Part shown: in pieces, positions 3,434 to 51,927 of the stretch
Layout of the letters: the number at the start of each line of letters is the position of its first letter
How positions within the stretch are numbered: the stretch's first letter is position 1
Assembly (NCBI GenBank): GCA_963789835.1
Contig: CAWBMF010000011.1
Coordinates: forward strand, 9,814 to 73,813
Reading direction: 5' to 3'
Length of the DNA: 64,000 bases
DNA from: an uncultured delta proteobacterium
Lineage (GTDB): Bacteria; Desulfobacterota; Binatia; Binatales; Binataceae
The notes under the pieces: generated by a model
What the model was told of the DNA's origin: nothing
Database searches by the model: none
The model's input: the letters and a program-made list of their open reading frames with translations, nothing else
Program-made: the position numbers and the translations under genes

Positions 3434-3441
3434 CCGACTCT

Positions 3442-3801: not shown

Positions 3802-3881
3802 ATGGGCCATTTTCCTGCCATTCCGGCAGACTGGATGTCGGTCGCGATCTCACGCTAGTCGTGTCCACCTGAAAGATTGCG

Positions 3882-15059: not shown

Positions 15060-15301
15060 CTAAGCGAGTTATTACAGCAAATCTCAAATTAAGACACTAC
15101 TTGAAAATGATTACGTTGCGCATTGCCGTCTAAAATTGAAGCTTTGGGCCGGACGTCGAGTCCGAACTCAGCAAGCGAACTCAGAGCCGGGAGGGAAATA
15201 GCCTCCGGTTCAGCAACGCGGTTTAGGCAGAGGTTACGTCGCCCGCTGCTCCCTCGGCGAAATCGAACCGCTTGCCGCAGCAAGGTCCAGACTGCACCAA
15301 C

Positions 15302-18300: not shown

Positions 18301-18463
18301 GGTCGCAGAAGAGAACGGTCAGATGGCGCCGCTCGCCGTCGGAAGTTTCTTGATGCTCCGGAACAACACCATCCGCAGCGGGTGGAGCGTCGGCAACGCC
18401 GATCGGCGCTCCGCACTTGCCGCAAAATCGCGCTGCAGGCGAGTTCTCGAATCCGCACTTCAC
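15302..18463 (-). CDS. paralogous Zn-ribbon / class III cyclase / AAA-STAND ATPase / TPR multidomain protein
   Basis: 'CGFENSPAARFCGKCG', 'RRHLTVLFCDLVGSTP...RIGMHTGPVVV', 'IQGEAGVGKSRL'; the same architecture as the neighbouring gene; 1053 aa. Confidence 0.85.
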   Translation of the reverse strand: MKCGFENSPAARFCGKCGAPIGVADAPPAADGVVPEHQETSDGERRHLTVLFCDLVGSTPLSQQLDAEECRDIIEQYQQIAASAVVRFGGHLARKLGDGLLIYFGWPAAHEDDPERAIRAGLAILEAMVSLNSTLAAKGGPRLQVRIGMHTGPVVVTGGDEVFGETANVAARVQTAAEPDTVAVTAATQRLVAGMFVLEDLGPQALKGVREPVTLYRAVRPSGVRSRLDVASGRLTPFVGREVELATLVERWERAQDGEGQNALIQGEAGVGKSRLAYQLHERLNAVPHTWLECGATPYTVGTPFHPVIALVSQALAFKPEDTLVEKLKKLETGLGALASTDKVALMADLLGLQTPIPLQMNPDLQRHRTIDLLAEWSLALSEAQPLVVLVEDLHWCDASSLEVVGRLIEQSATARVLLLATARPEFTPQWSARQNTTTLSLQRLTKRQARDMVASLLAEKLPQDTLEALVARADGVPLYLEELTKAMVEPGAARVVEAIPATIADSLMARLDRLSAAKEVAQRAAVLGREFSYSLLAAVAGMDQAALQQGLARLAEGEIVFVRGEPPEAVYAFKHALVQEAAYDSLLKRTRQQLHGHVVDVLMATFPETAAAEPELLARHAEAAGRIGEAIAAYQRAGGQAQSRSAHEEAIRHLRKAIILLASQPEGMERELLEIQLQLTLCQSLTAAKGYAHVEVEVAYDRARVLCETTGDARLGFALDGLALFALNSGLVERACVVGARMLTIAEQTGDRHLAVSGHFDIGTAETYQGKFASALAHLETGQALYSPGQGYGAIAEDLGPPLLVWIANDLSILGWLDRAITSSGDAVDMARRLGYPFALANALFFKAFVHWRRREITGQRENAAETIALSEAHGFPLWLGLGRALYAAARVAAGESESIADLVAGLALVAETGNQGGAPVLFALLSEAYLTASQLTEARGAAAAGLAIAAQTGQGLFDSELNRLQGEIILASGGSIAEAEAHFHRALDFARAQGAKSFELSTATTLARLWRDQGKPSEARDLLAPIYAWFTEGFDTADLKDAKALLDELNV

Positions 18464-33186: not shown

Positions 33187-36100
33187 TCAACGACGCCCAG
33201 TGCCCTTGAGCGCCACGCTTTGAGGGCTGGTAGAGGCGTTGTCGCTCAGGTTCAGAGTTGCGCTGTGCGCTCCGGTCGTACTCGGAGTGAATGTGACTGC
33301 CAGCGTGCACGACTTCTTGGGCGCGAGCGTCACCGGAACCGCACCGCAGGTCCCGCTGCTGCCGGCCGAAAATTCAGGATCCGACGAAATAGCACTCGAG
33401 ATGATCAGCGAATTAGCGGCGCCGGTGTTATGGACCGTCAGCGTCTTGGTGGCATTCTGGCCGACCGTCACTTTGCCGAAGGCGAGCGAGGCAGTCACCG
33501 TCAGTGTCGTAGTTGGAGTCGCAGTCGGCGTGGCAGTCGCGGTTAAAGTGGCCGTCGCCGTGGCAGTAGGAGTCGCGGTGCCAGTATTGGTTGCGGAGGC
33601 TGTCGCGGTTGCGGTCTGTGTAGCTGTGGCAGTGGCAGTAGGAGTGGCGGTCCGAGTACTGGTTGCGGTCCCGGTCGCCGTTGAAGTTGCAGTGGCGGTG
33701 GATGTTGCTGTCTGAGTTGCAGTTGTCGTTGCGGTCGCCGTCTGAGTAGCCGTCGCAGTGGGAGTTGCGGTGGCAGTAAGAGTCGCGGTCGCAGTCTTGG
33801 TTGCAGTCGCGGTCGGCGTCGCCGTGGCGGTAGCTGTCGATGTCTGGGTAGCTGTCGCGGTTGCGGTCTGAGTATTGGTGGCGGTCGCCGTCGCAGTTGT
33901 GGTTGCAGTGGGAGTTTGCGTAGCTGTGGCAGTGACAGTAGGAGTCGCGGTCTGAGTATTGGTTGCGGTCGCGGTGGCCGTTGAAGTTGCGGTGGAGGTG
34001 GATGTTGCCGTCCGAGTTGCAGTCTGTGTTGCGGTAGCAGTTGCAGTTGTCGTTGCGGTCGCAGTTAAAGTCGTCGTGGCGGTAGCTGTCGATGTCTGGG
34101 TAGCTGTCGCTGTTGCAGTCTGAGTATTGGTTGCAGTCGCGGTCGCAGTTGAGGTTGCCGTATTAGTGGCCGTCGCAGTCGGGCTAGGAGTCGCGGTCTG
34201 AGTATTGGTTGCCGTCGCCGTCTTAGTGGCCGTGGCGGTTGTGGTTGCAGTGGGAGTTTCCGTAGCCGTGGCAGTGACAGTAGGAGTCGCCGTCTGAGTA
34301 TTGGTTGCGGTCGCCGTGGCCGTTGAAGTTGCAGTGGCGGTCGATGTTGCTGTCTGAGTTGCAGTTGTCGTTGCGGTCGCCGTCTGAGTAGCCGTCGCAG
34401 TGGGAGTTGCCGTGGCAGTAAGAGTCGCGGTCGCAGTCTTGGTTGCAGTCGCGGTCGGCGTCGCCGTGGCGGTAGCTGTCGATGTCTGGGTAGCTGTTGC
34501 GGTCGCCGTGGCCGTTGAAGTTGCGGTGGCAGTCGCCGTTGAAGTTGCAGTGGCGGTGGATGTTGCCGTCTGAGTTGCAGTCTGAGTTGAGGTCGCAGTG
34601 AGAGTCGCGGTGGCGGTCGCCGTGGCAGTAGGAGTCGCGGTCGCCGTATTGGTCGCCGTTCGGGTGGCCGTGGATGTCGCCGTCTGAGTGGCGGTTGCTG
34701 TGGCAGTAGGAGTCGCCGTGGCTGTAGGTGTGGACGATGTAGCCAGGGCCGGCTCTACACCTTCTGCGATTACGGTGGTCTGGCTTTCGCCGCAGACCAG
34801 AGCTTCGGTTCCAGAAGCGTTAATGGTCTTCCCATCACCCAGGTACATCCCGAACCAGTCGCCGTTGATCTGAGTTAGGTTCACCAACTGAGTTACATCT
34901 GACGGAGTTGTAAATATCGCGTTGCAACTTACCGTCAGGTACAACTCTTCGTTAGCAACGCTGGGCGTCCCATAGGTGATGCTAGTTACGCCGCCGCCCG
35001 GATCGCCCGCTTCGGCACGGACAGCCGGGTCAAGGCACTGGCTTTGGTTAGCTCCGTGGAACTCGATGAAGGACGCATTCGGGTAAGCCGTCGTGCCGAA
35101 GGTAAAAGTGTAATCTCCGCTCTCGCTGCTCGCGATTTTCGTGAAATCACAAAGGCTCGCGTTAGTGCCGCTGGCATTCGGACAAGTCCCGCCCGAGGTC
35201 CAGCCGGACGGCGGCGTGACGCTTACGCCATTCCTACTTGCTACGCTGATGATCATGCAATCGCCGTTGGCGGGCGTGCTCGACAGCCCCGCTCCGGTTC
35301 CAGCGCCGGTACACGTTTGATACGGCGCATTCGCGCCAGTGCATTCGGAGTTGTAGTAGATATTGATCGACGAACCGCCGCTGTTGCTGTTGCTCGCATA
35401 TTGGACCAGCTTGACCGTCTGGAATACGGGGGTCGCGGTGGCGGTTGGGGTCGCCGACAGGGTTGGCGTCGCGGTCACCGTCGGCGTTGCTATAGCGGTA
35501 CTCGTTGCCGTCGCCGTCGCGGTGCGCGTCGGTGTGGCGGTGGCGGTCGGCAAGCCTGTCGGCGTCGAGGTAGGCACCGCCGATCCAAACGCCATCACCA
35601 GGTTGTTGGCATTGACGGTGCCGATGCCGGTCGCAAAATCCCAGCCGACGCCCGCGGCGAAAGCAGTCTCGAGCGATGAATCCAATATCGACAGGCCGCC
35701 ATAGGTGGTGCCCGACGGCAGGTAGCAGTTGTTACTGCCCTGGCAATCGACGTCCATGTCGCCGAGCGTGACGTCATAGAAGATGCACGACGGGTTGACG
35801 GCGTTCCCCAAGGTCGAATTGCACGCGGGATTCCCGCCCGCTCCGTATTCTGCCGCCGCTAGCGAATAGTAAGTTTGATTCGGGTTTCCCTGGCGGATGC
35901 CGGTCCGCTGATTGATGAGCGCCTGGATGCCCGCCATGATCGGCGACGAAACCGAGGTGCCGCCGAATCCCGCCCATGTGTCCGGCGTTCCCGCGCATGA
36001 CGCACCGCCGTTCTTCGTATCCGAGTAGCAGGTTACGTAGTAGTGGCCCCACACTCCGTTCGCCGCGAACAGCGACACGTCGGGAATGTCTCTGACTCCG

Positions 36101-37716
36101 TCCGCGGGATTGCCAACGATCGATTGCCAGGTGGGCTTGCTGTAACCCGCGCAGCTCCCGCTTACGACGTTGGCGGTCGACGGTGCCCCGGTGGCGCATC
36201 CGCTGGGTCCGCCGCTGCCGGACGCGGTGGTCAGGTAATAGTACTCACCCAGAACGCTGTTGCAGAATCCGTCGCTGCCGAACGGCGACGATGAGCCCAG
36301 GTAGGTCGATAGCAGGTCGCTGGCGCACGAGTCATTCCACGGAATTTCCGGAACGTAGGACAACGCCGATCCGTAGGTCGAGCTGTTGGTCGATGACCAA
36401 TAGCTGCTGGTCGTGCCCGCATAGAGGTCGCCGAAATCGGTGCCGCCCACTGACACGTTATACGGGGTCGACGTGAATCCGCTCACTGCTATGCCGTGGG
36501 TCGCTACTGATTCGTCGGCGTCGGCGCTGGCCCCGCCCTCGTCGCCCGACGACACGAATACCGAGACGCCCTCTGCCACCGCCTGCTGATAGAGCCCCTT
36601 AATGTAGAGGTTGGTGGACGCGCCCAGCGAGGCCTCGGCCTCTCCGTAGCTGATGCTCACAATCGCAGGGGGAGTGCCGGACTCGCTGAGCAGATTTTGC
36701 AGCGCGATGAATCCGCCGAAGTTGGTGCTCGTGTCCGTGCATGACGCCAGCTCTATCGCCGCGTTGGGCGCCGCCGCGCTGGCCCACTCGACGTCGATGG
36801 CAGCCTCGCCGTCGTCGGCGTTGACGCCGGGATTGGTGCAGGTTCCGCCGGTGCCCGTCGGATGAACCGTACTCAACGAGCCCGACGAATAAGTGCTAAG
36901 ACCCAGGACACTGCGGAACGTAGTCCAGTCGGCAGTGGTGTGGAGATTGGTATCCTCGACCGTGACGATGGTCTGTCCCTTGCCCGAATAGCCGGCGGCG
37001 AACAGCGGATTGAAGTTATAAATGGTCGCGAGGTCCGCGGGCACCATCAGCTGGTAGCCGCTGCTGGTCGTGAAGTCTGTGCGCCGCCGATACATCGGAT
37101 GCGGACGGAAATCATTGAGCGACACGATGCCCGCCACCGCCGGCGCGAGCGCGGCCGGGATGCTCGGGTCGCTCATATTGGCGAAATGGCTCGCGCCGTT
37201 TACGGACAGCGCATGAATGCGGGTATGGAAAGCGCGGTGGATCGATCCCGCATTCCCGGAAAAATCGATCAGCATCGCGTTCGGATAAACGTAGTTGACC
37301 TGGAACCCCTGCGCTCGAAGCCATGCGGATATGGTGGCGATGTCGCTGGCGGCCGCGCCGAAGCGATCGCCAAATTCCTGCGCGGTCAGCCAGTGGTGGT
37401 AGTTCGGCGAGGCCGGATCTTCAAGCTGGTCGAGCAATCGCTCCAGGGCGCGCTCGCGCGATGGCGAGCGCCGCAGTTGAAGCAGCAGATGGTCGAGCGG
37501 GAAATCGTCAGGCTCGAGCCCGCGATCATTGCGCGCCGTAGCCTCGGGACGGACGTTGCCCGGCACCGTGATTAGGTCGTTGTAATTGATCTGGTCGGTG
37601 ATTTGGGCTGTCGCGGACGATCCGCCGGCTATCGCGCGCGCCGAGACCGGCAGGAGGCAAAGCGCCAGCGCGCCGAGCGCGACGATGATCGCTATTGTCA
37701 GACCCCGTTTCCCCAT
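33187..37716 (-). CDS. giant secreted sedolisin (S53 serine-carboxyl peptidase) with a pro-domain, a middle domain of unknown function, a ~450-aa Thr/Ala-repeat linker and a C-terminal ASH/DUF1573-like beta-sandwich domain
   Basis: Signal peptide 'MGKRGLTIAIIVALGALALCLLPVSARA'; catalytic motifs 'SISYGEAE' (Glu), 'VSSGDEGG' (Asp) and 'FGGTSVSSP' (SGTSxxxP Ser); (T-A-T-A-T-P/Q)n low-complexity run; C-terminal 'LAFGKVTVGQNATKTLTVHNTGAANSLIISS...CTLAVTFTP'. Confidence 0.85.
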   Translation of the reverse strand: MGKRGLTIAIIVALGALALCLLPVSARAIAGGSSATAQITDQINYNDLITVPGNVRPEATARNDRGLEPDDFPLDHLLLQLRRSPSRERALERLLDQLEDPASPNYHHWLTAQEFGDRFGAAASDIATISAWLRAQGFQVNYVYPNAMLIDFSGNAGSIHRAFHTRIHALSVNGASHFANMSDPSIPAALAPAVAGIVSLNDFRPHPMYRRRTDFTTSSGYQLMVPADLATIYNFNPLFAAGYSGKGQTIVTVEDTNLHTTADWTTFRSVLGLSTYSSGSLSTVHPTGTGGTCTNPGVNADDGEAAIDVEWASAAAPNAAIELASCTDTSTNFGGFIALQNLLSESGTPPAIVSISYGEAEASLGASTNLYIKGLYQQAVAEGVSVFVSSGDEGGASADADESVATHGIAVSGFTSTPYNVSVGGTDFGDLYAGTTSSYWSSTNSSTYGSALSYVPEIPWNDSCASDLLSTYLGSSSPFGSDGFCNSVLGEYYYLTTASGSGGPSGCATGAPSTANVVSGSCAGYSKPTWQSIVGNPADGVRDIPDVSLFAANGVWGHYYVTCYSDTKNGGASCAGTPDTWAGFGGTSVSSPIMAGIQALINQRTGIRQGNPNQTYYSLAAAEYGAGGNPACNSTLGNAVNPSCIFYDVTLGDMDVDCQGSNNCYLPSGTTYGGLSILDSSLETAFAAGVGWDFATGIGTVNANNLVMAFGSAVPTSTPTGLPTATATPTRTATATATSTAIATPTVTATPTLSATPTATATPVFQTVKLVQYASNSNSGGSSINIYYNSECTGANAPYQTCTGAGTGAGLSSTPANGDCMIISVASRNGVSVTPPSGWTSGGTCPNASGTNASLCDFTKIASSESGDYTFTFGTTAYPNASFIEFHGANQSQCLDPAVRAEAGDPGGGVTSITYGTPSVANEELYLTVSCNAIFTTPSDVTQLVNLTQINGDWFGMYLGDGKTINASGTEALVCGESQTTVIAEGVEPALATSSTPTATATPTATATATQTATSTATRTATNTATATPTATATATATLTATSTQTATQTATSTATATSTATATATSTATATATATQTSTATATATPTATATKTATATLTATATPTATATQTATATTTATQTATSTATATSTATATATNTQTATPTVTATATETPTATTTATATKTATATNTQTATPSPTATATNTATSTATATATNTQTATATATQTSTATATTTLTATATTTATATATQTATRTATSTSTATSTATATATNTQTATPTVTATATQTPTATTTATATATNTQTATATATQTSTATATATPTATATKTATATLTATATPTATATQTATATTTATQTATSTATATSTATGTATSTRTATPTATATATQTATATASATNTGTATPTATATATLTATATPTATPTTTLTVTASLAFGKVTVGQNATKTLTVHNTGAANSLIISSAISSDPEFSAGSSGTCGAVPVTLAPKKSCTLAVTFTPSTTGAHSATLNLSDNASTSPQSVALKGTGRR
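33520..34760. repeat. intragenic GC-rich tandem repeats encoding the Thr/Ala linker, including a ~635-bp near-perfect segmental duplication
   Basis: The 'gcggtcgcagtcttggttgcagtcgcggtcggcgtcgccgtggcggtagctgtcgatgtctgggtagctgt' block recurs at about 33780 and about 34420; the protein motif 'ATPTATATKTATATLTATATPTATATQTATATTTATQTATSTATATSTAT' occurs twice. Confidence 0.7.
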
Positions 37717-37920: not shown

Positions 37921-39930
37921 CTATTTACTCCCGGCGGGCTTGCCGGTTCCGGAAAGACTAACGCTCTGCGGTGAGTTGGGCTCGTCGTCGACAATCGTCA
38001 GCGTTCCCTGTTGTGGCGTGGTGTTGATTGGCGCGAAGGTCACCGACACTTTGCAACTCTTGTGAGGCTGGAGAACTTTTTCGCACTGCGACTCTATCGC
38101 GAATTGCTGCGGCGACGCGCTTTCCATTGCGATACTCAGCGCCATGCTTCGCTTGCGGCCCGAGTTCGTGATCGTGACGGTCTTGGGCTTGCTGGTGGTG
38201 TCGACGCGCACCTTGTTGCCGAATGCGAGCGTAGCGGGCTGGAAAGTCAGCTTGCTGGGGTACATCCCGAACACGGCGAGCTGGGTCTGCGTTCCCAGAT
38301 AGACCGAGCCGTTGGCCACGGTCGGAACGGCGAACTTAACCGCGGGTCCGGGGTGATCGCTGGTCACCTGATTGCTGTCATAAAGCTCGTTGTTCAGGTT
38401 GATCGCGTCGAATGCATAGAGAATCGCGGTCCCGCCTGTCGAAAAGCCCGAAGCGTTGACGGCCCACATGATGCCGCCAGTGGTGTTATTGGCCGAGATA
38501 ACCGGCGACGCGCCCGGGAATCCAAATGTGAAGTTCCTGGCGATCGACTCGGTCGCCGTCTCGATCATTCCATTGGTGATGACAAAACTCTTCGGCTGAT
38601 CGTTCGACGCGACGGTGTAGATCATGTTCCGCACGAGGCCCTTCGCCACCTTTCCCTGCCAGTACGCGGGTGTGCTGAACATTCCACCGATTGCGCCCGG
38701 CAGTTCCTGCACCATCTGATCCATGCTGGCATTGAATCCACCCATCGAGTCGCGGTTGACCAGGTAGATCGTGCCGAGTTTGCCTATGCCGATCACAAGA
38801 TGAGGATTTGGTCCGGGCTGATCCGGCAGCAGGAGGTTGCCGCCGGAACCCATGTCGGCGTCTTCGTCATCGAGGATCAGCTCGTTGAGCGGCGTGAAGA
38901 AGCTGTCGACAGTCATGGTCCCGGGGGTGCCGATGTTGGGCGTCAATCGGATGAAGCTGTCGCCGTAGTCAATCGGCGACGCGACGGTATCGAACGTCCC
39001 GTTGCCGGTGACCGCGATCAAATCGCCGTTGGTATCGACGCCGGGGCCGCATCCCGATTCCCATATCCCGCCTTGCGAGCCATTGGGCGTATCGTCGTAC
39101 ACGATTACCTGCGCCAGCGTGGTCTCGTCATAGCCGAGAATCCATCCATGATAAGGCGTGATGTCGCAATGTGAGGCGAAGGTCAAATAAACCACGCCGT
39201 TCGCGAGCGTCAGCGCCGCGCGATCGTTCTGCAACAGCGGATCGAAAGTAACGACCCCGTTGAGGCTGGCCTCACCCGTTCCCGGGCCGCTGGCCACGAT
39301 CGTCACGGGAGAGTTCGGCTGTTCGAGCCCGGTGGTGATATCGAGTGCGTGAAGTTGCTGTTGGTAGCTGCCCGGGCCCAGCTTGACCTTCGAGACTACG
39401 AACAGAGTTCCCGTCGATGGGTCGATTACGGGCGTAGCGGTAATCCCGATGATCTTGGTCAGGTCCATGCAATCAGGTCCGAGGTCCGAGACCGGCACCG
39501 GAGTGATGCCATTGGCGGGATCGATAAAGCTGGTTTGCCAGAGCGGAGGTCCGGCCACATCCGCGTCGAACGCGTACACGCTGTCATTTTCCGTCGCGAC
39601 GTACACGACGTTGTGCGTGCCCTGGCTCGGGATCGTAACGTTCGGCACGTAGAGCGGCTCGGCATAAATGAAACCGTCGACGGCGTCGGTAAACTTCAGG
39701 CCGAAGCGCTGGGCGTTAACCTTCGAAGGAGTCAGTACGCGCTCCGCCAGGTTTTGTCCCGTGCGAAAATTATCGTTGCGGTAGGTGAACGTGCCGCTGA
39801 ACCCCGGCTCGACCGCATGCGCGGTCGCAACCGCACCGACTATCGCTGCGACCAGGGCGGCCACACCCAGAGCCGAAGCCCGCAATGTTCGCTGAATCAC
39901 TCTCCCCCTCCAGACCTCTTCGGCAAGCAT
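37921..39930 (-). CDS. secreted PQQ-like beta-propeller repeat protein with a C-terminal ASH/DUF1573-like domain
   Basis: Start at 'MLAEEVWRG...' and signal peptide 'LRASALGVAALVAAIVGAVATAHA'; repeats such as 'HNVVYVATENDSVYAFDA'; C-terminal 'LAFGNKVRVDTTSKPKTVTITNSGRKRSMALS...CKVSVTFAP...SPQSVSLSGTG' parallels the neighbour's C-terminus. Confidence 0.75.
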   Translation of the reverse strand: MLAEEVWRGRVIQRTLRASALGVAALVAAIVGAVATAHAVEPGFSGTFTYRNDNFRTGQNLAERVLTPSKVNAQRFGLKFTDAVDGFIYAEPLYVPNVTIPSQGTHNVVYVATENDSVYAFDADVAGPPLWQTSFIDPANGITPVPVSDLGPDCMDLTKIIGITATPVIDPSTGTLFVVSKVKLGPGSYQQQLHALDITTGLEQPNSPVTIVASGPGTGEASLNGVVTFDPLLQNDRAALTLANGVVYLTFASHCDITPYHGWILGYDETTLAQVIVYDDTPNGSQGGIWESGCGPGVDTNGDLIAVTGNGTFDTVASPIDYGDSFIRLTPNIGTPGTMTVDSFFTPLNELILDDEDADMGSGGNLLLPDQPGPNPHLVIGIGKLGTIYLVNRDSMGGFNASMDQMVQELPGAIGGMFSTPAYWQGKVAKGLVRNMIYTVASNDQPKSFVITNGMIETATESIARNFTFGFPGASPVISANNTTGGIMWAVNASGFSTGGTAILYAFDAINLNNELYDSNQVTSDHPGPAVKFAVPTVANGSVYLGTQTQLAVFGMYPSKLTFQPATLAFGNKVRVDTTSKPKTVTITNSGRKRSMALSIAMESASPQQFAIESQCEKVLQPHKSCKVSVTFAPINTTPQQGTLTIVDDEPNSPQSVSLSGTGKPAGSK

Positions 39931-40015
39931 CCTAGTGACGCAGGGGCGGCAGGTCCACGAGCAAAACGCGCTATCGGGGCGCTTTCGTGATATTTGGTAA
40001 ATCGAGGCATCGAAG

Positions 40016-40690
40016 GTGGACTCTCCTCCCGACGACCGCTCGCCGCCATTGCAACGGCTCGCGCGACTGTTTACACCGAACCGCTCCGCCGCGCTGCGAC
40101 AGTATCGCTCGCGTGCGCGCATCTACGACTTCGAGCTCGCGCTGTTCGAACCGGTGCGGCAGCGCGCGATAGATCTGCTGGCCCTGAAGAGCGGCGACCG
40201 GGTGCTGGATGTCGGCTGCGGCACCGGATTGAGTTTCACCGCGCTGGAGGGCTTGGTCGGCGCGGGCGGTGCGATCGTCGGAATCGAGCAGAGCCCCGAA
40301 ATGCTCGAGCGGGCGCGTACGCGGGCGGCCGAGAATAACTGGCGCAATGTCACGCTCATCTCGGCGTCGGTCGAGGAAGCGGCGATACCGATTGCGGCCG
40401 ACGCGGCGCTGTTTCATTTCACGCACGACATCATGCGGACGCGCAATGCGATCGCCAACGTCGTCAGTCATCTAAAGCCGGGCGCGCGCGTGGTCGCGGC
40501 CGGTCTCAAGTGGGCGCCGATACGGACGATGCCGCTGAACCTGTTCGTGTGGAACGCCGCCCTCCGATCGACCAGCACGCTGGAGGGCCTGGCGCGCCCG
40601 TGGAGCAATCTCGAGGCGCTGGTGCCAGGGCTCGAAATCGAGCAGATGCTCGGCGGCACGGTCTACGTCGCCAGCGGAATCGTCAAGTAA
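40016..40690 (+). CDS. class I SAM-dependent methyltransferase
   Basis: 'RVLDVGCGTGLSF' motif I; 224 aa; transcribed divergently from the propeller gene. Confidence 0.8.
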   Translation: MDSPPDDRSPPLQRLARLFTPNRSAALRQYRSRARIYDFELALFEPVRQRAIDLLALKSGDRVLDVGCGTGLSFTALEGLVGAGGAIVGIEQSPEMLERARTRAAENNWRNVTLISASVEEAAIPIAADAALFHFTHDIMRTRNAIANVVSHLKPGARVVAAGLKWAPIRTMPLNLFVWNAALRSTSTLEGLARPWSNLEALVPGLEIEQMLGGTVYVASGIVK

Positions 40691-44390: not shown

Positions 44391-47300
44391 TCAGTCGGCG
44401 ACGTGGGATTCGGCGGGGGCGGATTTCGGGCGGCCGATGGCCCAGCGCCACAGTTTCGACCATTCGGCGCTGACGCGGTCCATGTACAGGTAGATCACCG
44501 GCGTCGTGTAGAGCGTCAGCATCTGGCTCACCATCAGGCCGCCGACGATTGCGATACCGAGCGGACGGCGCATCTCGGAGCCGGTCCCGTTACCCAGCGC
44601 GAGCGGCAGGCCGCCGAGCAGCGCGGCCATCGTCGTCATCATGATCGGGCGAAAGCGCAGCACGCACGCTTCGTAGATGGCGTCATGCGGCGATTTGCCT
44701 TCGCCGCGTTGAGCCTCGAGCGCGAAGTCGATCATCATGATCGCGTTTTTCTTGACGATGCCGATCAACAGGATGATGCCGATGAGCGCGATCACGCTCA
44801 GCTCAATGTGGAACAGCAGCAGCGCGAGAATCGCGCCGACGCCGGCCGAGGGCAGCGTCGACAAAATCGTGATCGGATGGATGTAACTTTCGTAGAGGAT
44901 GCCGAGCACGATGTACACGGCGAACAGCGCGAACGCGACGAGGAAGCCTTCGTTTTTGAGCGAGTCCTGGAACGCCTGCGCCGTGCCCTGGAAGATTCCG
45001 CGAATCCCGGCGGGCATCTTAATCTGCGCCTCGGCTTGCGTGATGGCGTCGACCGCCTCGCCCAGCGCCACACCCGGTGCAAGATTGAACGAGATGGTCA
45101 CGGAGGGAAATTGCCCGGTGTGATTGACCGCCAGTGCGGTCGTGTCGTTGGCGAAGTGGGTGAAGGTGCTGAGCTTGACCAGCTGGCCGGTGGTGGTCGA
45201 CCTCACATGGATCTGATCGAGTGAGTCGGGGTTCTGCCAGAACTGCGGCGCGACCTCCATCACGACATGGTATTGGTTGAGCGGCGTGTACATCGTCGAC
45301 ACCTGCCGCTGGCCGAAGGCGTCGTACAGCGTGTCGTCGATGGCCTGCTGCGAAAGTCCCAGGCGCGACGCGGTGTCGCGATCGACGACGACGTTGGCCT
45401 CGAGGCCGCTGTTCTGCTGATCGCTGCTGACGTCGGTGAGAATTTTAACGCTGCGCAATTTCTTGAGCACCTTCGGCGCCCATTGGTTGAGCTCGCTGAG
45501 GTCGTCGCTCTGCAGCGTGAATTGATATTGCGCGTTGCTCGATCTGCCGCCGATGCGCAAATCCTGTACCGCCTGCATATAAAGATTGACGCCGGCGATG
45601 TGCCCGACCTCCTTGCGGATGCGTCCGATAACGAGGTCGGCGCTGATCTTTCGCTCGCTGAGGGGTTTGAGCGAGATGTACATGTTCGCCGTATTGGTTG
45701 CGCCTTGGGCGCCAGTGAACGCGATGACGTTGGAGACCGCCGCATCTTTACCTATCGCCGCGACCAGTTCCTGCAGCCGCTCCTTCATCGCCTGGAATGA
45801 CGTGTCCTGGTCGGCCTGCACCGCGCCCATCAGGCGGCCCGTATCCTGCTGCGGGAAGAATCCCTTCGGCACCACCATGAACAGGTAGATGCTCAGCGCA
45901 AGTGTCCCGAGCGCGACTGCCAACGTGAGCGGCTGATGATCGAGCACCCACATCAGGCTCTTTTCGTAGCGGTCGAGCATGCCGGTGAAGAAACGCTCGC
46001 TCAAGTTGTACCAGCGGTTGTGTTTTTCCTGGTCGTGGGGCTTGAGCAGATGTGCGGCCATCATCGGCGTGGTGGTAAGCGAGATGACCAGTGAAACCAG
46101 CACGGCGGCCGACAAGGTCACGGCGAACTCGCGGAACAAGCGGCCGACGATTCCAGCCATCAGCAAGATCGGAATGAAGACGGCGACCAGCGAGATGCTG
46201 ATCGATATGACGGTGAATCCGATGCCCGCGGCGCCCTTGATCGCGGCTTCGAACGGCGACATGCCCTGTTCGCGAAAGCGCGAAATGTTCTCGATGACGA
46301 CGATGGCGTCGTCGACCACGAAGCCCGTGCAAATCGTCAGCGCCATCAGCGAGAGATTGTCGAGGCTGTAGCCGAACAGGTACATGATGCCGAAGGTGCC
46401 GATCAGCGACAGCGGAACGACGACGCCCGGAATCAGCGTGGCGCGCAGATTACGCAGGAACAGGAACACCACCATGATCACGAGCGCGATCGAAATCATC
46501 ATGGTGAATTCGACGTCATGCACCGAGGCGCGGATGGTGGTCGTGCGGTCGAGGACTACGGTCAAGTCGATGGCGGCCGGGATCGAAGCGCGCAATTGGG
46601 GCAACGCCGCGTAAATTCGATCGACGGTATCGATAATGTTCGCGCCGGGTTGGCGGAAAATAATCACCAGCACGGCCGGCTTGCCATCGACCATACCGGC
46701 GGCGCGAACGTTCTCGACCGAGTCTCTCACCAAGCCGATGTCGGAAAGCTGAACGGCGGCGCCGTTGGTATAGCGCACGATCAGCGGCTGATAATCCTCG
46801 GCCTTGAGCAGTTGATCGGTCGTGCTCAAGCCCCAGGTCTTTTCGTTATTGGCCAGCTCCCCTTTGGGGCGGTTCGCATTGGCATTGGCGAGAACCGTTC
46901 GCACGTCCTCGAGTCCGACGCCGAGGTTGCTCATCTGCGTTGGATTCAGCTCAACGCGGACGCCGGGCAACGCGCTGCCGCCGACACTGACCTGGCCGAC
47001 GCCGTCGATTTGCGAGAGCTTCTGTTCGAGGATCGAGTCGGCAGCGTCGTACATCATTCCCGGCCGTACGGCGCTCGAGGTCAGGCCGAGAATCATGATC
47101 GGTGCGTCGGCAGGATTGACCTTTCTATAGGTCGGCTTGCTCGGCAGTGTCGTCGGCAGTTGGCCGGCGGCGGCGTTGATGGCGGCCTGCACGTCGCGCG
47201 CGGCGGCGTCGATGTTGCGGTTCAAGTCGAATTGCAAAACGATGCTGGTGGCGCCGAGATAGCTGGTCGAAGTCAGTTCCGTCAGGTTGGCGATACGGCC

Positions 47301-47513
47301 GAACTGGCGCTCGAGCGGAGTCGCCACCGACGAGGCCATCGTCTCGGGACTCGCGCCGGGCAAAGACGCCTGGACCTGTATGGTGGGGAACTCGACCTGC
47401 GGCAACGGCGCGACCGGGAGCAGCCGGAACGCGATCGCGCCGGCGAGCGCAAGCGCGATGGTCAGCAGCGTGGTGGCGACCGGCTTCCTTATGAAGACTT
47501 CGGAAACACTCAT
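44391..47513 (-). CDS. mdtC: RND multidrug efflux permease, MdtC-like
   Basis: Start '[18 protein letters not shown]...[36 protein letters not shown]' closely tracks E. coli MdtC; 12-TM RND fold; its ATG overlaps the stop codon of mdtB. Confidence 0.8.
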
Positions 47514-50500
47514 GACGCTTGAGCGGGAATCGCCTCCGGCTCGACGCCTTTGTTTCGCCACTGGGCGAAGCGCGTCGCCATTCGATCGAAGGTCAGGAAA
47601 ATGACCGGCGTCGTGTACAGCGTGAGCACCTGGCTCACGAGCAGGCCGCCGACGATGGCGATACCCAGCGGGCGGCGCAACTCCGAGCCGACTCCGGTGC
47701 CCAACGCGAGCGGCAAGCCGCCGAGCAGCGCCGCCATCGTCGTCATCATGATTGGCCGGAAGCGCAGCAGGCAGGCCTGGTAGATCGCCTCGCGCGGAGG
47801 CTTGCCTTCACCGCGCTGAGCCTCGAGCGCGAAGTCGATCATCATGATCGCGTTCTTCTTCACGATACCTATCAGCAGGATGATGCCGATGAGCGCGATC
47901 ACGTTGAGATCCTGGCCGCAGATCATCAGCGCCAGGATCGCGCCGACGCCGGCCGAAGGCAGCGTCGAGAGAATCGTGACCGGGTGAATGTAACTCTCAT
48001 AGAGAACGCCGAGCACGATATACACGGTGACCAGCGCGGCAAGGATCAGCAGCGGTTCGTTCTTCAACGACGCGCGGAACGCAGCGGCGGTGCCCTGGAA
48101 CGAAGCCTCGATGCTCGCGGGCATCCCGATTTGCTCACGCGCCTGGTCGATGGCGGATACGGCGTCGCCCAGCGAGTAGCCCGACGCGAGATCGAACGAG
48201 ATCGTCACCGCGGGAAACTGACCCTCGTGATTGACTACCAGCGGCGCCGCGCCCGGCTCGAAATGCGTGAAGGCACTTAGCGGCACCTCGCCTCCCGTGT
48301 TCGAGCGAATATAGATGTCGTCGAGCGCGTGCGGATTGCGCTGGAACTGCGGCGCCACTTCCAGCACCACGTGATACTGGTTCAGCTGCGTGAACATCGT
48401 CGACACCTGCCGCTGTCCGAAGGCGTCGTACAAGGTGTTGTCGATGAGATTCGGCGTGATGCCGAGCCGCGACGCCGTCAGCCGATCGATGACCACATGC
48501 TCTTCCCAGCCGTCGTTCTGCTGGTCGGTCGCGACATTGCGCAGCGCAGGCAGCGTCTTGAGCTTGTCGACCAGTTTGTTGGTCCACAGATTCAACTCGT
48601 CGGCGCTCGGATCCTCGAGGCTGTACTGATACTGCGTGCGGCTCACGCGATCTTCGACCGTCAGATCCTGCACCGGCTGCAGGTAGAGTTGGATGCCGCT
48701 GACCGTCGCCAGTTTCGGCGCGAGGCGGTTGATAACGGTCGTAATGTCGACCTTGCGATCCTCGAGCGGCTTCAGATTGATCAGGATGCGTCCGCTGTTA
48801 ACCGTCGTGTTGGTGCCGTCGATGCCGACGAATGACGACAGGCTCTCGACCGCAGGGTCCTGCAAAATGATCTGCGCCAAAGACTGCTGCCCACGCACCA
48901 TCGCGGCGAACGACACATCCTGCGGCGCCTGCGAAACGCCCTGGATAACTCCGGTGTCCTGCACCGGAAAGAAGCCCTTGGGCACGACGATGTAGAGCAC
49001 GATGGTCAGCACCAGCGTTGCGATCGCGACCATCAGCGTCGCGAACTCGTGCTCAAGCACCCATTCGAGCGTGCGGCCGTAAAACGCGATCGTGTCGTCG
49101 AAGACTTTTTCCGACCTGCGATAGAACCAGGTCTGCTGATCCTTGGGCGTATGCTTGAGCAGTTTCGCGCTCATCATCGGCGTCAGCGTCAGCGAGACCA
49201 CCGCCGACATCAGGATGGTCACCGCCAGCGTGACGGCGAACTCGCGGAACAGGCGGCCGACGATGTCGCCCATGAACAGCAGCGGAATCAGCACGGCGAT
49301 CAGCGAGACGGTCAGCGACAGAATCGTGAAACCGATCTGCTCGGCGCCCTTGAGCGCGGCGTCCAGCGGCTTGTCGCCCTCCTCGATGAAGCGCGAGATA
49401 TTTTCGATCATGACGATGGCGTCGTCGACCACGAAGCCGGTCGAAATCGTCAGCGCCATCAGCGAGAGGTTGTCCAGGCTGTAGCCCAGCATGTACATGA
49501 CGCCGAAGGTGCCGATCAGCGACAGCGGCACGGCGATACTCGGGATGATCGTCGCCGACAGGCTGCGCAGGAACAGGAAGATGACCATCACGACCAGCGC
49601 CACCGTCAGCATCAGCTCGAACTCGACGTCCTTGACCGACGCGCGAATGGTGGTGGTGCGATCCGTCAGAATCTGCACCTTGACCGACGACGGCAGCGAC
49701 GCCTGCAAGCGCGGCATCAGCGCCTTGATCCGATCGACGACGGCGATAATGTTGGCGCCCGGCTGCCGCTGGACGTTGACGATCACCGCCGGCGTCAGGT
49801 TCATCCAGGCCGCGGCCTTGACGTTCTCGGCGTCGTCGACCGCGGTCGCGACGTCGGACAGCTTGACCGGCGCGCCGTTGTGATACGAGACGATCAGCGG
49901 CATGTAGTCCTGCGCCGCCAGTAGCTGGTCGTTGGCGCCAATCGTGTACGCCTGCTGCTTGCCGTCGAAGTTACCCTTGGCCTCGTCGACGTTGGCTGAG
50001 GATATCGCAGTCCGCAGGTCCTCCAGCGTCATTCCATATGATGCGAGCGAGGTCGGATTAGCCTGGATGCGGACCGAAGGCTTCTGGCCGCCGCCGATAC
50101 TGACCAGACCGACGCCCGGCAGTTGCGAGATTTTCTCGGCCAGGCGTGTGTCGGCCAGATCCTCGACCTGGTCGAGCGGCAGCTCCTTGGAGGTCAACGC
50201 CAGCGTAAGAATCGGCGTGTCGGCCGGATTGGTCTTGCTGTAAACGGGCGGGTTCGGGAGATCCGTCGGCAGATAAGTCGTCGCCGCGTTGATCGCCGCC
50301 TGCACTTCCTGCTCGGCCACGTCGATACTCAAGTTGAGATCGAACTGCAGCGTGATGACCGAGCTGCCGAACGAGCTGTTCGAGGTCATCTGCGTGAGCC
50401 CCGGCACCTCGCCGAATTGCCGCTCGAGCGGAGCCGTCACCGAGGACGCCATCACGTCCGGACTGCCGCCGGGGTAAAAGGTCACGACCTGGATGGTCGG

Positions 50501-50626
50501 ATAATCCACCTGCGGCAATGCCGAGACCGGCAGTTGTCCGTAGGCGACGAGCCCCGCCAGCAGCAGCCCGACCATCAACAGAGAAGTCGCGACCGGCCGC
50601 AGAATGAACGGGCGCGACAAACTCAC
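47510..50626 (-). CDS. mdtB: RND multidrug efflux permease, MdtB-like
   Basis: '[25 protein letters not shown]...[36 protein letters not shown]' closely tracks E. coli MdtB. Confidence 0.8.
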
Positions 50627-51927
50627 GGATTGGCTCCGGGTCCCGAGGGCGCAGCCGCCGCGTTTCCTGGCGCCGCGTTCGCGGGCGGCATCGCGGCGAG
50701 TTGCATATTCACGTGCGCGCCCTGCTGCAGCTTGTCGACGCCGTCGGTCACGACCAGCTGTCCCGGCGTAAGGCCCTTGGCGATAGCAACGATGTCCCCT
50801 TGCGTCGCTTGCACCGTCACCATCTGCATCGTGACGGTCTTGTCCGGCTTGACGACGTAGACGAACGATCCCTGCTGGCTGCGCTGCAGTCCGGCGGCCG
50901 GGATCAGAGTCGCATTGGGGATAGTGTCGACGAGCAACTGCGCGTTGACGAATTGATTGGGGAACAGCGAATTGTCCTCGTTGGGAAATGCCGCCTTGAG
51001 CTTGATAGTGCCGGTGGACTGATCGATCTGATTGTCGGTCGTCAGCAGCGCTCCCTCGGCGAGTTTGTGCTTGATGTCGCGATCGTAAGCCACGACCGGC
51101 AACTGCGGATTGGCCTTCATCGCCTTCTCGAGTTTCGGCAGATCGTCTTCCGGGATACTGAAGTCGACCGCGATCGGCTGCAGTTGCGTAATCACCGCGA
51201 GCCCGGTCGTGTCGGTCGCATGAATGATATTGCCCGGGTCCTGCAGCCGGAGCCCGACGCGCCCTGAAATCGGCGACGTGATCTTGCTGTAGGTCAGTTG
51301 CAGCTTGGCGTTGTCGACCGCGCCCTTATCGCTCTCGATCGAGCCGGCATACTGGCCGACCAGCGCTTCCTGGTTGTCGAGGTCCTGCCGCGCGATCACT
51401 TTCTGCGCGTAAAGTTCCTTGTCGCGCGCGTAGAGAATTTTGTTGTTTTCGAGCGTCGCCAGATCCTTCGCCAGCGTGCCCTGCGCCTGTTCGAGCTGCA
51501 CCTGGTACGGACGCGGATCGATCTCAGCCAGCACGTCGCCGGCTTTTACAATCTGCCCTTCGGTAAAATTTACCTTGTTGAGCTGCCCGTCGACCCGGCT
51601 CTTGATAGTGACCGTGTTGTACGCCGTCACCGTTCCGATGGCGTTGATGTACTGATTCAGATCGCCTTGTGTCGCCGCTACCGCCGCGACCGGCACGGGT
51701 GCATGTACGACGGCGGCAGTGGTCGAAGAATCGGTGCTACTGCCAGCACTAAAATGGTGAATAGCGAATATCGCGACGAGCAGGACGATCGCCCACCGCA
51801 GCCAATGCTGCTTAACATTTTCGATCCAACCAGGCATTTCTGCATTCTGCACAAATCGCGTGGCGTTGGGCTTTCCGGTCGTCGGGGCGTCTGAATCCAT
51901 CATGGTCTCCGTCGCAATCCTCTCCAA
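50623..51927 (-). CDS. mdtA: RND efflux periplasmic adaptor (membrane fusion protein), MdtA-like
   Basis: Single N-terminal TM helix; lipoyl/beta-barrel segments '[24 protein letters not shown]'; overlaps mdtB; the start is uncertain ('MMDSDAP' is an alternative). Confidence 0.75.

What the first reader, a model, noticed from the sequence alone, without database searches (positions are those of the whole stretch)
33187..37716. 1509-aa secreted sedolisin with a ~450-aa Thr/Ala repeat linker and an unknown middle domain
A pro-kumamolisin-type S53 peptidase (motifs SISYGEAE / SSGDEG / GGTSVSSP) is followed by a short TA linker and a ~230-aa Cys-containing domain of unknown function ('KLVQYASNSNSGGSSINIYYNSECTG...'). 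Then comes an extraordinarily long (T-A-T-A-T-P/Q/K)n linker, of the kind that is often O-glycosylated, and a C-terminal ASH/DUF1573-like beta-sandwich. The nearby GT-C glycosyltransferase in this window is a speculative candidate for linker glycosylation. The architecture suggests a surface-displayed, spacer-extended protease.
Basis: partly seen in the sequence, partly recalled or inferred. Interest (0 to 1): 0.65.

Follow-up and report, generated by a model that had tools for sequence, protein, structure and literature searches.

The report
Secreted modular sedolisin with phage-like module
This is a real gene for a secreted acid protease (sedolisin) from a Binataceae-type soil bacterium, carrying a 415-residue strict (Thr-X)n spacer and a middle domain from an uncatalogued beta-sandwich family found mostly in phages; nothing shows that it is anchored to the cell surface.

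Summary
ORF 33187-37716(-) encodes 1509 aa: signal peptide, pro-kumamolisin activation domain, and an S53 catalytic domain with E304/D308/D392/S588 aligned to kumamolisin. These are followed by a 50-aa T/A/P linker, a 226-aa domain with 8 Cys, a 415-aa linker and a C-terminal ASH / choice-of-anchor D Ig-like domain.

- **Linker:** it is a strict (Thr-X)n dipeptide repeat, with 203 of 211 Thr in one register. It is not an assembly artefact. The DNA repeats are imperfect, a 94-97% identical independent contig has it about 210 nt shorter, and Binataceae orthologues carry 50-300-aa versions.
- **Middle domain:** it matches no Pfam, NCBIfam or PDB entry. It belongs to a family with at least 208 cluster representatives, mostly phage-encoded. 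Its AF2 model (pLDDT 82) matches phage proteins, including 'minor tail proteins' (TM 0.6-0.77). Orthologous proteases (69-82% identical cores) carry unrelated or very divergent family members in this slot.
- **Function:** most likely a secreted protease tethered to binding modules.
- **Not supported:** no sorting signal supports surface display, and there is no evidence for the link to the GT-C gene 25 kb away.

I rate it a new variant of a known kind, of moderate interest.

The parts
37633..37716 (-). Sec-type signal peptide, aa 1-28 (MGKRG / hydrophobic core / SARA|IAGG)
   Evidence: Read from the sequence. It is the only hydrophobic segment in the protein. The cleavage site is inferred from the AXA rule. 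There is no canonical lipobox.
37063..37632 (-). Propeptide, aa ~29-218, containing the pro-kumamolisin activation domain
   Evidence: Pfam PF09286 at aa 85-203, E 3.8e-27. Aligned to the pro-kumamolisin 1T1E propeptide. Mature kumamolisin residue 7 aligns to aa 225.
35578..37062 (-). Sedolisin (S53) catalytic domain, aa ~219-713. Catalytic E304, D308, S588; oxyanion D392; Ca-site motifs YDVTLGD (~647-653) and GWDFATGIG (~691-699). A Cys-rich insertion at ~aa 440-580 is not present in kumamolisin.
   Evidence: phmmer against PDB: 1T1E at 1.2e-20, TPP1 3EDY at 1.6e-14. DGEAAIDVE aligns to dGEveLDiE, SSGDEG to aaGDsG, and GGTSvssP to GGTAavaP of the S278A mutant. At least 590 relatives in GTDB species genomes.
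35425..35577 (-). Linker 1, aa 714-764, T/A/P-rich with all 21 Thr in one register
   Evidence: Composition and register.
34747..35424 (-). Middle domain, aa 765-990: all-beta module with 8 Cys from an uncurated, mostly phage-encoded family. Near-invariant family positions are D819, P836, G838, A862, E865, G888, P938 and G969.
   Evidence: No Pfam, NCBIfam or PDB sequence hit. 208 representatives at E<=1e-3. AF2 pLDDT 81.6, pTM 0.83, 13 strands. Foldseek gives nothing in PDB and 69 hits at E<=1e-3 in BFVD, including minor tail proteins.
33502..34746 (-). Linker 2, aa 991-1405: a strict (Thr-X)n repeat of about 207 dipeptides
   Evidence: DNA repeats are 67-85% matching. The longest exact repeat is 86 nt, and the largest duplication is 293 nt at 90% identity with 18 synonymous and 8 non-synonymous codon changes.
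33190..33501 (-). C-terminal Ig-like beta-sandwich (ASH / HYDIN-VesB-like / choice-of-anchor D), aa 1406-1509. The protein ends without a sorting signal.
   Evidence: Pfam PF15780 at 4e-13, PF22073 at 3.5e-15, PF22544 at 3.7e-10. NCBIfam NF012200 at 64 bits against a cutoff of 45. 62-71% identical to the first of three such domains in orthologues.
37921..40122 (-). Upstream same-strand neighbour: a 733-aa secreted-type protein with the same kind of C-terminal Ig-like domain. It may share a secretion or targeting tag with the sedolisin; it is not shown to be functionally linked.
   Evidence: ASH and choice_anch_D hits. 40% identity of the C-terminal domain to that of the sedolisin. A homologue lies upstream of the L004 orthologue but is absent from the syntenic L003.

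Best explanation
The gene encodes a secreted, modular serine-carboxyl peptidase (sedolisin, MEROPS S53) of a Binataceae-like soil or peat bacterium.

- **Shown:** a Sec signal peptide; a pro-kumamolisin propeptide; a complete Ser-Glu-Asp triad with the oxyanion Asp; and two (Thr-X)n low-complexity linkers that separate the protease from two beta-sandwich modules.
- **Inferred for the protease:** after export the propeptide is removed autocatalytically at low pH, as in kumamolisin, and the enzyme degrades extracellular protein in an acidic habitat.
- **Inferred for the middle module:** this domain, of a family found mostly in phages (some members annotated as minor tail proteins), is a non-catalytic binding module. 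It would hold the protease on an insoluble or cell-surface ligand, probably a glycan, in the way a carbohydrate-binding module (CBM) serves a glycoside hydrolase.
- **Inferred for the long linker:** it is an extended, probably O-glycosylated, protease-resistant tether of roughly 100 nm that connects this unit to the C-terminal Ig-like domain.
- **Inferred for the C-terminal domain:** it acts either as a second binding module or, as in Vibrio VesB, as the element recognised for outer-membrane secretion.
- **Shown for evolution:** the tail is a rapidly reshuffled cassette. Orthologues keep the protease but exchange modules and vary linker length.
For: - **Protease identity:** Pfam Pro-kuma_activ. 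PDB hits to pro-kumamolisin and TPP1, with E304/D308/D392/S588 aligned.
- **Export:** the signal peptide is the only hydrophobic segment. Many Cys residues occur in the catalytic and middle domains.
- **Habitat:** the nearest relatives are MAGs from peat, bog and soil (Binataceae, Acidobacteriota, Acetobacteraceae, Dyella). S53 peptidases are enriched in the genomes of archaeal acidophiles (PMC6411800).
- **Linker is real and lineage-typical:**
- **The middle domain is a folded, recurrent module:** 208 representatives, tandem arrays and stand-alone forms. The AF2 model has pLDDT 81.6.
- **Its partners are binding or surface modules and hydrolases:** GH54 arabinofuranosidase (P0003); He_PIG plus a T9SS tail, Laminin_G_3, WD40, Ig_Rha78A_N and DUF6701; collagen plus CBM_5_12, PKD and TIG.
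- **Phage contexts:** next to T7-type tail-fibre genes and inside phage contigs. The fold matches phage minor tail proteins.
- **Module exchange:** protease cores are 69-82% identical and the C-terminal Ig domain 35-71%, but the middle module has no BLASTP match in any orthologue. L033 carries a divergent family member (hhalign 98.8%), L006 carries two copies, and L005, L007 and L008 carry none.
- **VesB precedent:** an Ig-fold that carries a T2SS signal (PMC12369372).
Against: - No ligand, activity or glycosylation has been tested.
- The middle domain matches no known CBM or lectin family and no solved structure, so 'binding module' rests on its domain partners and on its phage context.
- Near-invariant Asp and Glu (D819, E865) could instead be catalytic.
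- One family member (P0163) lies in the head-gene region of a prophage rather than among tail genes.
- The role of the C-terminal domain is undecided.
Confidence: 0.6

Rival explanations
1. Surface-displayed protease. The C-terminal Ig-like domain fixes the protein to the producer's outer surface, and the ~415-aa linker acts as a stalk that projects the protease and middle module beyond the envelope or EPS.
For: The long spacer sits exactly between the protease-plus-module unit and the C-terminal domain. NCBIfam choice-of-anchor D domains are, by definition of that family and to my own knowledge, typically found in proteins that end in a sorting signal. The neighbouring secreted protein carries the same kind of C-terminal domain.
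Against: There is no sorting signal, lipobox or C-terminal TM segment. The protein ends 2 residues after the domain. Orthologues also end on an Ig-like domain. Nothing is known about whether such a domain binds the envelope non-covalently.
Confidence: 0.2
2. The C-terminal Ig-like domain is mainly a secretion or stability element rather than a binding or anchoring module. It would be recognised by a type II secretion system, as shown for the VesB Ig-fold.
For: There is a Pfam PF22544 (HYDIN/CFA65/VesB-like Ig) hit. The VesB Ig-fold carries a PDZ-dependent T2SS signal that can be transferred to beta-lactamase (PMC12369372). Two adjacent exported proteins share this terminal domain.
Against: No T2SS genes are seen in this window. 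The similarity to VesB is at domain-superfamily level only. Orthologues carry 3-7 tandem copies, which suits binding or spacing better than a signal.
Confidence: 0.25
3. The middle module is a phage-type receptor-binding domain that directs the protease to surface glycans of other cells, for antagonism or necromass targeting. The module exchange among orthologues would reflect specificity switching, as in tail fibres.
For: The family is predominantly phage-encoded and sits beside tail-fibre genes. The fold matches minor tail proteins. Its closest relatives are 41% identical proteins on a phage contig. There is non-orthologous replacement among 69-82% identical proteases.
Against: No phage member has a demonstrated receptor-binding role. 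'Minor tail protein' is an annotation label. The phage contig L001 has 42% GC against 60% here, so it is probably not a phage of this host. Family members also occur with glycoside hydrolases, which fits generic polysaccharide binding.
Confidence: 0.15
4. The Thr/Ala region is an assembly artefact, either collapsed or expanded repeats or a chimeric join.
For: The region is repetitive. A 94-97% identical contig (L002) differs in length by about 210 nt within the repeats and has a broken reading frame.
Against: - The frame stays open for 1.24 kb and runs into a well-scoring C-terminal domain.
- DNA repeats are only 67-85% matching, the longest exact repeat is 86 nt, and the largest duplication has diverged by 30 of 294 nt, mostly synonymously.
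- All four Thr codons are intermixed at random.
- More than 10 independent MAGs, from short- and long-read assemblies, carry the same kind of linker.
Confidence: 0.03
5. The (T-X)n region is not a flexible linker. It would be a folded Thr-faced beta structure with TxTxT arrays, as in insect antifreeze proteins, and would bind ice, mineral or crystalline surfaces.
For: The register is perfect, with every second residue Thr over 415 aa. There is a weak compositional hit to an antifreeze protein, 6XNR, at E 0.0046.
Against: There is no constant higher-order period: non-T/A residues are spaced 2-14 apart. Pro is frequent at X. Length varies from 50 to 430 aa among orthologues and sits between any pair of domains. 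The same style of sequence is used as short inter-domain connectors in homologues.
Confidence: 0.03

Closest known systems
Kumamolisin / pro-kumamolisin (PDB 1T1E, 1GT9), the sedolisin family MEROPS S53, and human TPP1 (3EDY)
   Same: It has the propeptide (Pro-kuma_activ), the Ser-Glu-Asp triad with oxyanion Asp, the GGTS and SGD motifs and the GWDxxTGxG Ca-site motif.
   Different: The catalytic domain is about 500 aa and carries a ~140-aa Cys-rich insertion. It is followed by ~800 aa of linkers and beta-sandwich modules that the characterised enzymes lack. Identity to kumamolisin is low, and only about 390 aa align confidently.
Pro/Thr-rich inter-domain linkers of secreted bacterial glycoside hydrolases (e.g. 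the Cellulomonas fimi Cex/CenA (PT)n linkers), and the O-mannosylated Ala/Pro/Thr-rich regions of actinobacterial secreted proteins (from my own knowledge, not checked in a paper here)
   Same: It is a dipeptide-register, hydroxy-amino-acid-rich, nearly uncharged spacer between a catalytic domain and binding modules.
   Different: X is mainly Ala rather than Pro. The length is 415 aa (~207 dipeptides), roughly an order of magnitude longer than classical PT linkers. Glycosylation is untested. The host is a diderm of the candidate phylum Binatota.
Vibrio cholerae VesB (trypsin-like protease plus C-terminal Ig-fold plus GlyGly-CTERM)
   Same: It is a secreted protease followed by an Ig-like domain of the HYDIN/CFA65/VesB-like Pfam family. 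In VesB that domain carries T2SS secretion information (PMC12369372).
   Different: The protease clan differs (S53 versus S1). There is no GlyGly-CTERM or other anchor. The Ig-like domain lies 415 residues of linker away from the rest of the protein.
Phage proteins annotated 'minor tail protein' (Mycobacterium phages Tweety, Shauna1, Stubby, MooMoo and PP; Gordonia phage GodonK) and many uncharacterised Caudovirales proteins in BFVD
   Same: The predicted fold of the middle domain matches at TM 0.5-0.77 with E down to 2e-9. HMM-level relatives lie in phage contigs next to tail-fibre genes.
   Different: Sequence identity is 12-21%. No BLAST-level match exists to any cultured phage record. Here the domain is embedded in a bacterial secreted protease and carries an extra Cys-rich N-terminal loop (IYYNSECT...CTG..TG.GL), which it shares only with its closest relatives P0002-P0006.

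Membership tests
Sedolisin / MEROPS S53 | N-terminal pro-kumamolisin-type activation (pro) domain | tested here: met
   PF09286 at aa 85-203, 95.7 bits against a cutoff of 23.5.
Sedolisin / MEROPS S53 | Ser-Glu-Asp catalytic triad plus oxyanion-hole Asp, aligned to a solved sedolisin | tested here: met
   E304, D308, D392 and S588 align to kumamolisin E78, D82, D164 and S278 in the phmmer alignment to 1T1E.
Sedolisin / MEROPS S53 | Ca2+-binding site motifs (D-x-T-x-G and GWD-x-x-TG-x-G) | tested here: met
   YDVTLGD and GWDFATGIG are present. The latter aligns to the kumamolisin and TPP1 motif in low-scoring HMMER segments. This is motif-level evidence only.
Sedolisin / MEROPS S53 | Peptidase activity with an acidic pH optimum and autocatalytic propeptide removal | not testable with these tools
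   This needs a recombinant enzyme assay.
Choice-of-anchor D / ASH Ig-like domain proteins | Domain match above the curated threshold | tested here: met
   NF012200 at 64 bits against a cutoff of 45; PF15780 at 49.8 against 27.
Surface-anchored proteins (PEP-CTERM, LPXTG, T9SS CTD, GlyGly-CTERM, lipoprotein) | A recognised sorting signal, lipobox or C-terminal TM helix | tested here: not met
   No such model hit at E<=0.1. The only hydrophobic segment is the N-terminal signal peptide. The protein ends ...VALKGTGRR.
O-glycosylated Thr-rich inter-domain linkers | A low-complexity, uncharged, Thr-rich segment between folded domains | tested here: met
   51% T, 29% A, and 7 charged residues in 415. 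It is flanked by folded domains.
O-glycosylated Thr-rich inter-domain linkers | Actual O-glycosylation and a cognate glycosyltransferase | not testable with these tools
   The only GT-C-like ORF (7175-8470) is 25 kb away and sub-threshold for MptB (21.8 bits against a cutoff of 40).
Uncurated phage-associated beta-sandwich family (fold matches phage 'minor tail proteins') | Significant profile-level homology to phage-encoded members | tested here: met
   hmmsearch gave 208 representatives. Members P0002, P0005, P0152, P0163 and P0187 lie in phage or prophage contexts.
Uncurated phage-associated beta-sandwich family (fold matches phage 'minor tail proteins') | Shared fold | tested here: met
   The AF2 model (pLDDT 81.6) against BFVD gave 69 hits at E<=1e-3 with TM up to 0.77. 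These are predicted-versus-predicted structures only.
Uncurated phage-associated beta-sandwich family (fold matches phage 'minor tail proteins') | Receptor or ligand binding | not testable with these tools
   No member is characterised. There is no PDB relative.
Known carbohydrate-binding modules / lectin domains | Match to a curated CBM or lectin family | tested here: not met
   None of the 47 family members matches any Pfam family consistently. There are no NCBIfam hits.

The most novel reading that the evidence does not exclude
The middle domain is a phage-type receptor-binding module that moves between phage host-recognition proteins and bacterial secreted hydrolases. In Binataceae sedolisins it would be swapped like a tail-fibre tip to retarget the protease to different cell-surface or polymer glycans. 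That would make these enzymes 'addressable' proteases on ~100-nm Thr-X tethers, and the family would be a new fold with no solved structure.
Probability: 0.15. Interest if true: 0.7.

Novelty: new variant of a known kind. Interest (0 to 1): 0.42.

Why it matters
Sedolisins are the typical secreted proteases of acidic habitats, and this core family is very common in peat and soil bacteria: at least 590 relatives among GTDB species genomes. The gene shows how Binataceae build on that core. They string interchangeable beta-sandwich modules on strict (Thr-X)n tethers of very unusual length.

The work also places a formerly 'unknown' domain into a sizeable family. That family has at least 208 clusters at 50% identity, no Pfam or NCBIfam model and no solved structure. 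It is shared between phages, where it sits next to tail-fibre genes, and bacterial extracellular enzymes and adhesin-like proteins.

This gives three practical leads:
- a candidate new domain family for curation and for structure determination;
- a candidate targeting module for studying how soil bacteria localise extracellular proteolysis;
- a natural set of very long, uncharged, register-perfect linkers for studying tether mechanics and bacterial O-glycosylation.

None of this overturns current understanding.

Tried and rejected
- **Structure prediction:** AF2 of the middle domain with a 2-sequence alignment failed (pLDDT 30.6). It worked only after I built a 47-sequence alignment from the exhaustive HMMER search.
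- **Word-indexed homologue search:** with the single domain it found only 2 proteins. This would have wrongly suggested an orphan domain.
- **Solved structures:** the PDB sequence profile search with the family alignment gave 0 hits at E<=10. Foldseek against PDB gave only noise, with TM below 0.3.
- **Cultured phages:** tblastn of the domain and of a typical stand-alone member against 50,697 phage records gave no match.
- **PHROGs:** only weak hits, to phrog_3329 (unknown function) and to the N-terminus of phrog_13624 'hydrolase'.
- **Collapsed-repeat artefact:** considered and rejected (see the rival explanations).
- **Folded TxT antifreeze-like array:** considered for the linker. The irregular spacing of the X residues and the length variation argue against it.
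- **GT-C link:** examined. A 9-TM ORF exists but is 25 kb away and below threshold for any GT-C model.
- **Literature:** searches for Binatota peptidases and for sedolisins in Acidobacteria found nothing specific.
- **Unused resources:** I did not use the third homologous-protein search or the cluster look-up.
Full report
**Observation.** The minus-strand ORF 33187..37716 exists exactly as reported: ATG start, 1509 aa.

Pfam finds the pro-kumamolisin activation domain at aa 85-203 (E 3.8e-27). It also finds a C-terminal ASH/Cep192_D4/HYDIN-VesB-type Ig-like domain at aa 1406-1507. NCBIfam calls the latter a choice-of-anchor D domain, at 64 bits against a cutoff of 45. DUF1573 itself did not hit.

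**The protease.** phmmer against all PDB chains gives pro-kumamolisin 1T1E (1.2e-20), human TPP1 (1.6e-14) and mature kumamolisins. In the printed alignment:
- DDGEAAIDVE aligns with dGEveLDiE, which places E304 and D308.
- SSGDEG aligns with aaGDsG, which places the oxyanion residue D392.
- GGTSVSSP aligns with GGTAavaP of the S278A mutant, which places S588.
- The GWDxxTGxG calcium-site motif is present as GWDFATGIG.

The refutation criterion 'catalytic residues not aligning' is therefore not met. This is a bona fide S53 peptidase.

The N-terminus (MGKRG, a hydrophobic core, then SARA|IAGG) reads as a Sec signal peptide, and it is the only hydrophobic segment in the protein. Compared with kumamolisin, the catalytic domain has a Cys-rich insertion at about aa 440-580.

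**Where it comes from.** A scan of one genome per GTDB species found at least 590 loci encoding relatives of the 714-aa protease core. The closest (69-82% identity) are Candidatus Binataceae, Candidatus Binatus, and MAGs labelled 'uncultured delta proteobacterium' from soil and peat. They are followed at about 60% identity by Acidobacteriota, Acetobacteraceae and Dyella.

L003 is the syntenic orthologue. Its gene is flanked by the same methyltransferase, HxlR regulator and molybdopterin oxidoreductase. Binataceae belong to the candidate phylum Binatota. S53 peptidases are enriched in the genomes of archaeal acidophiles (PMC6411800), which fits these habitats.

**The Thr/Ala region.** Residues 991-1405 (415 aa, not ~450) are 51% Thr and 29% Ala, with only 7 charged residues. 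The real rule is stricter than 'TATATP/Q/K':
- Thr occupies every second position, with 203 of 211 Thr in one register.
- The autocorrelation is 0.9 out to lag 30.
- All other residues (A, Q, S, P, N, L, R, K and others) sit in the X position.
- There is no constant higher-order period; non-T/A residues are spaced 2-14 apart.
- Uninterrupted (T-X) runs of 182 and 194 aa occur, and this is the only such sequence in the window.
- The short first linker (aa 714-764) follows the same rule.

**Is the repeat an artefact?** The evidence says no.
- Tandem Repeats Finder sees only imperfect arrays, 67-85% matching.
- The longest exact DNA repeat is 86 nt.
- The largest internal duplication is 293 nt at 90% identity. 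It differs at 30 nt, with 18 synonymous and 8 non-synonymous codon changes.
- All four Thr codons are intermixed at random.
- The frame stays open through 1.24 kb and runs into a well-scoring domain.
- An independent ENA contig (L002) is 94-97% identical and has the same gene order. It contains the same region about 210 nt shorter, which matches an internal ~209-nt repeat offset. Its gene is broken by frameshifts that look like sequencing errors.
- Orthologues in more than 10 MAGs carry (T-X)n linkers of 50-300 aa, with uninterrupted runs of up to 228 aa.

The exact length may be polymorphic, but the feature is real and typical of the lineage. This copy is the longest seen.

**The middle domain.** Residues 765-990 (226 aa, 8 Cys) hit nothing in Pfam, NCBIfam or PDB.

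The word-indexed search found only two relatives. One is the L002 copy. The other is P0002, at 41% identity (43% over the trimmed domain).

An exhaustive HMMER search of 1.84 billion cluster representatives, using a two-sequence profile, found 208 proteins at E<=1e-3. Re-searching these showed a ~200-220-aa unit that occurs alone (many ~225-aa proteins), in tandem arrays of 2-4 copies, or fused to other modules.

Conserved positions map to D819, P836, G838, A862, E865, G888, P938 and G969. They lie in the motifs GD(L/C), PSGWT, K(I/V)ASSE(S/P)G.YTFT, YSG, P.D and T.PSGMTER.

With a 47-sequence alignment AlphaFold2 gives a confident all-beta model: pLDDT 81.6, pTM 0.83, 13 strands. Only the subfamily-specific Cys-rich loop (domain residues 26-45) is modelled poorly.

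Foldseek finds nothing credible in PDB; the best hit has E 7.5e-3 and TM below 0.3. In BFVD it finds 69 hits at E<=1e-3, with TM 0.6-0.77. These are uncharacterised Caudovirales proteins of 200-250 aa, plus proteins annotated 'minor tail protein' from Mycobacterium and Gordonia phages.

**Phage link by context.**
- P0002 and its paralogue P0005 lie on a 7-kb contig, each with a signal peptide and TP/TA linkers. They sit between a collagen-like ORF and a pair of ORFs that, by my own reading of their sequences, look like a holin and a lysozyme (neither matched any PHROG). The contig also encodes a phage-type helicase, methyltransferase and DNA polymerase.
- P0152 follows two Phage_T7_tail genes.
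- P0187 lies in a ~40-kb contig with a terminase.
- P0163 is in a Rhizobium prophage.

**Cellular members.** In cellular proteins the domain is combined with:
- a GH54 arabinofuranosidase catalytic domain (P0003, three copies);
- He_PIG plus a T9SS tail, Laminin_G_3, WD40 propellers, Ig_Rha78A_N and DUF6701;
- collagen plus CBM_5_12, PKD and TIG.

These partners point to an extracellular binding or adhesion module rather than an enzyme. That remains an inference.

**Modular evolution.** Protease cores of the nearest orthologues are 69-82% identical to the window. Their first C-terminal Ig-like domain is 35-71% identical, and 62-71% in L003, L005, L008 and L033. The middle domain has no BLASTP match in any of them. 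The slot after the first linker holds:
- a divergent family member in L033 (hhalign probability 98.8%);
- a probable family member in L003 (82%);
- an uncertain module, present twice, in L004 (21%);
- two copies of a different family member in L006;
- nothing in L005, L007 and L008, which go straight to three Ig-like domains.

The closest relatives of the window's module lie elsewhere: P0004 at 60%, P0003 at 34-46%, and phage P0002 at 41%. The tail is therefore a shuffled cassette built on a conserved protease.

**How it most likely works.**
- *Shown:* an exported S53 zymogen with a complete active site, connected by two (T-X)n spacers to two beta-sandwich modules.
- *Inferred:* acid-triggered autoprocessing as in kumamolisin, and extracellular protein degradation.
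- *Inferred:* the middle module localises the enzyme on an insoluble or cell-surface ligand.
- *Inferred:* the long spacer is an extended tether. At roughly 2.5-3.4 Å per residue, 415 residues span about 100-140 nm. Its composition suggests it may be O-glycosylated.
- *Undecided:* the C-terminal Ig-like domain is either a further binding module or a secretion or stability element. The VesB Ig-fold, which belongs to the same Pfam family, carries a transferable T2SS signal (PMC12369372). The upstream 733-aa exported protein ends in a 40% identical domain.

**What is not supported.** 'Surface-displayed' is not supported. No sorting signal, lipobox or C-terminal membrane segment follows the last domain.

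The GT-C idea is also unsupported. The only candidate is a 9-TM ORF at 7175-8470 with sub-threshold MptB-like similarity. It lies 25 kb away, beyond unrelated genes.

**Comparison and novelty.** Membership of S53 is met on every sequence-testable criterion. The architecture works like the catalytic domain, linker and CBM design of secreted glycoside hydrolases, and like the protease-plus-Ig design of VesB. It differs in three ways:
- the extreme, register-perfect Thr-X tether;
- the use of an uncurated, phage-associated module;
- the replacement of that module among close orthologues.

I rate it a new variant of a known kind, with moderate interest (0.42). The most novel reading still open is that the module is a phage-type receptor-binding domain exchanged between phages and bacterial exoenzymes to retarget them. 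I give this a probability of about 0.15.

**Limits.**
- There is no experimental evidence.
- The fold comparison is predicted-versus-predicted.

Noticed in passing
window 37921-40122 (-): A 733-aa exported-type protein lies directly upstream on the same strand. Its ~550-aa N-terminal region matches nothing in Pfam or PDB, and it has a C-terminal choice-of-anchor D/ASH domain 40% identical to that of the sedolisin. A 58% identical homologue lies upstream of the L004 orthologue, but the gene is absent from the syntenic L003. The ORF call is probably over-extended at its 5' end, where it overlaps the methyltransferase gene at 40016-40690.
   Followed up: partly
window 7175-8470 (-): A 431-aa ORF with about 9 TM segments and a DVYRYVWDG loop motif. 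It has no Pfam hit and only sub-threshold NCBIfam hits to MptB / alpha-1,6-mannosyltransferase (GT-C type). It sits next to DUF2064 and radical-SAM genes, 25 kb from the sedolisin.
   Followed up: partly
L001 1-7056 (JGI Ga0683287_0027294): A phage contig (GC 42%) carries two paralogous proteins (674-1651 and 2041-2991) with a signal peptide, the same beta-sandwich domain including the Cys-rich loop, and TP/TA linkers. They lie between a collagen-like ORF and ORFs that by sequence reading look holin-like and lysozyme-like (no PHROG match). Signal peptides on apparent phage structural or accessory proteins are unusual.
   Followed up: partly
L002 394-4698 (ENA ERZ25039605 contig_78598): A near-identical (94-97%) copy of the locus in which the sedolisin gene is split into 742-aa and 215-aa calls, with no call over the repeat. 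The repeat region is about 210 nt shorter than in the window. This could be a length polymorphism or long-read indel errors.
   Followed up: partly
window 33502-34746 (-): Thr codon usage in the linker (ACT 78, ACC 58, ACG 43, ACA 32) is very different from the protease core (ACC 34, ACG 14, ACT 6, ACA 4). Adjacent Thr codons are identical no more often than chance predicts. This may reflect selection for DNA-level heterogeneity or a different origin for the linker.
   Followed up: partly
L003 6001-11814; L004, L006 and L033 (orthologues): Orthologous sedolisins have very different tails. L003 (1938 aa) has two blocks of three Ig-like domains separated by a second long linker. L004 carries an exact duplicate of a 205-aa module. 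L006 carries two copies of a divergent member of the middle-domain family. L044 (Terriglobia) has seven Ig-like domains and no TA linker.
   Followed up: partly
window 11715-18463 (-) and 1547-5120: Two tandem genes for zinc-ribbon / adenylate-cyclase / AAA_16 / TPR proteins (1114 and 1053 aa). A DNA methylase and a tyrosine integrase at the start of the window suggest an integrated element there. Two AcrB-type pumps and a membrane fusion protein lie at 44391-51927.
   Followed up: no
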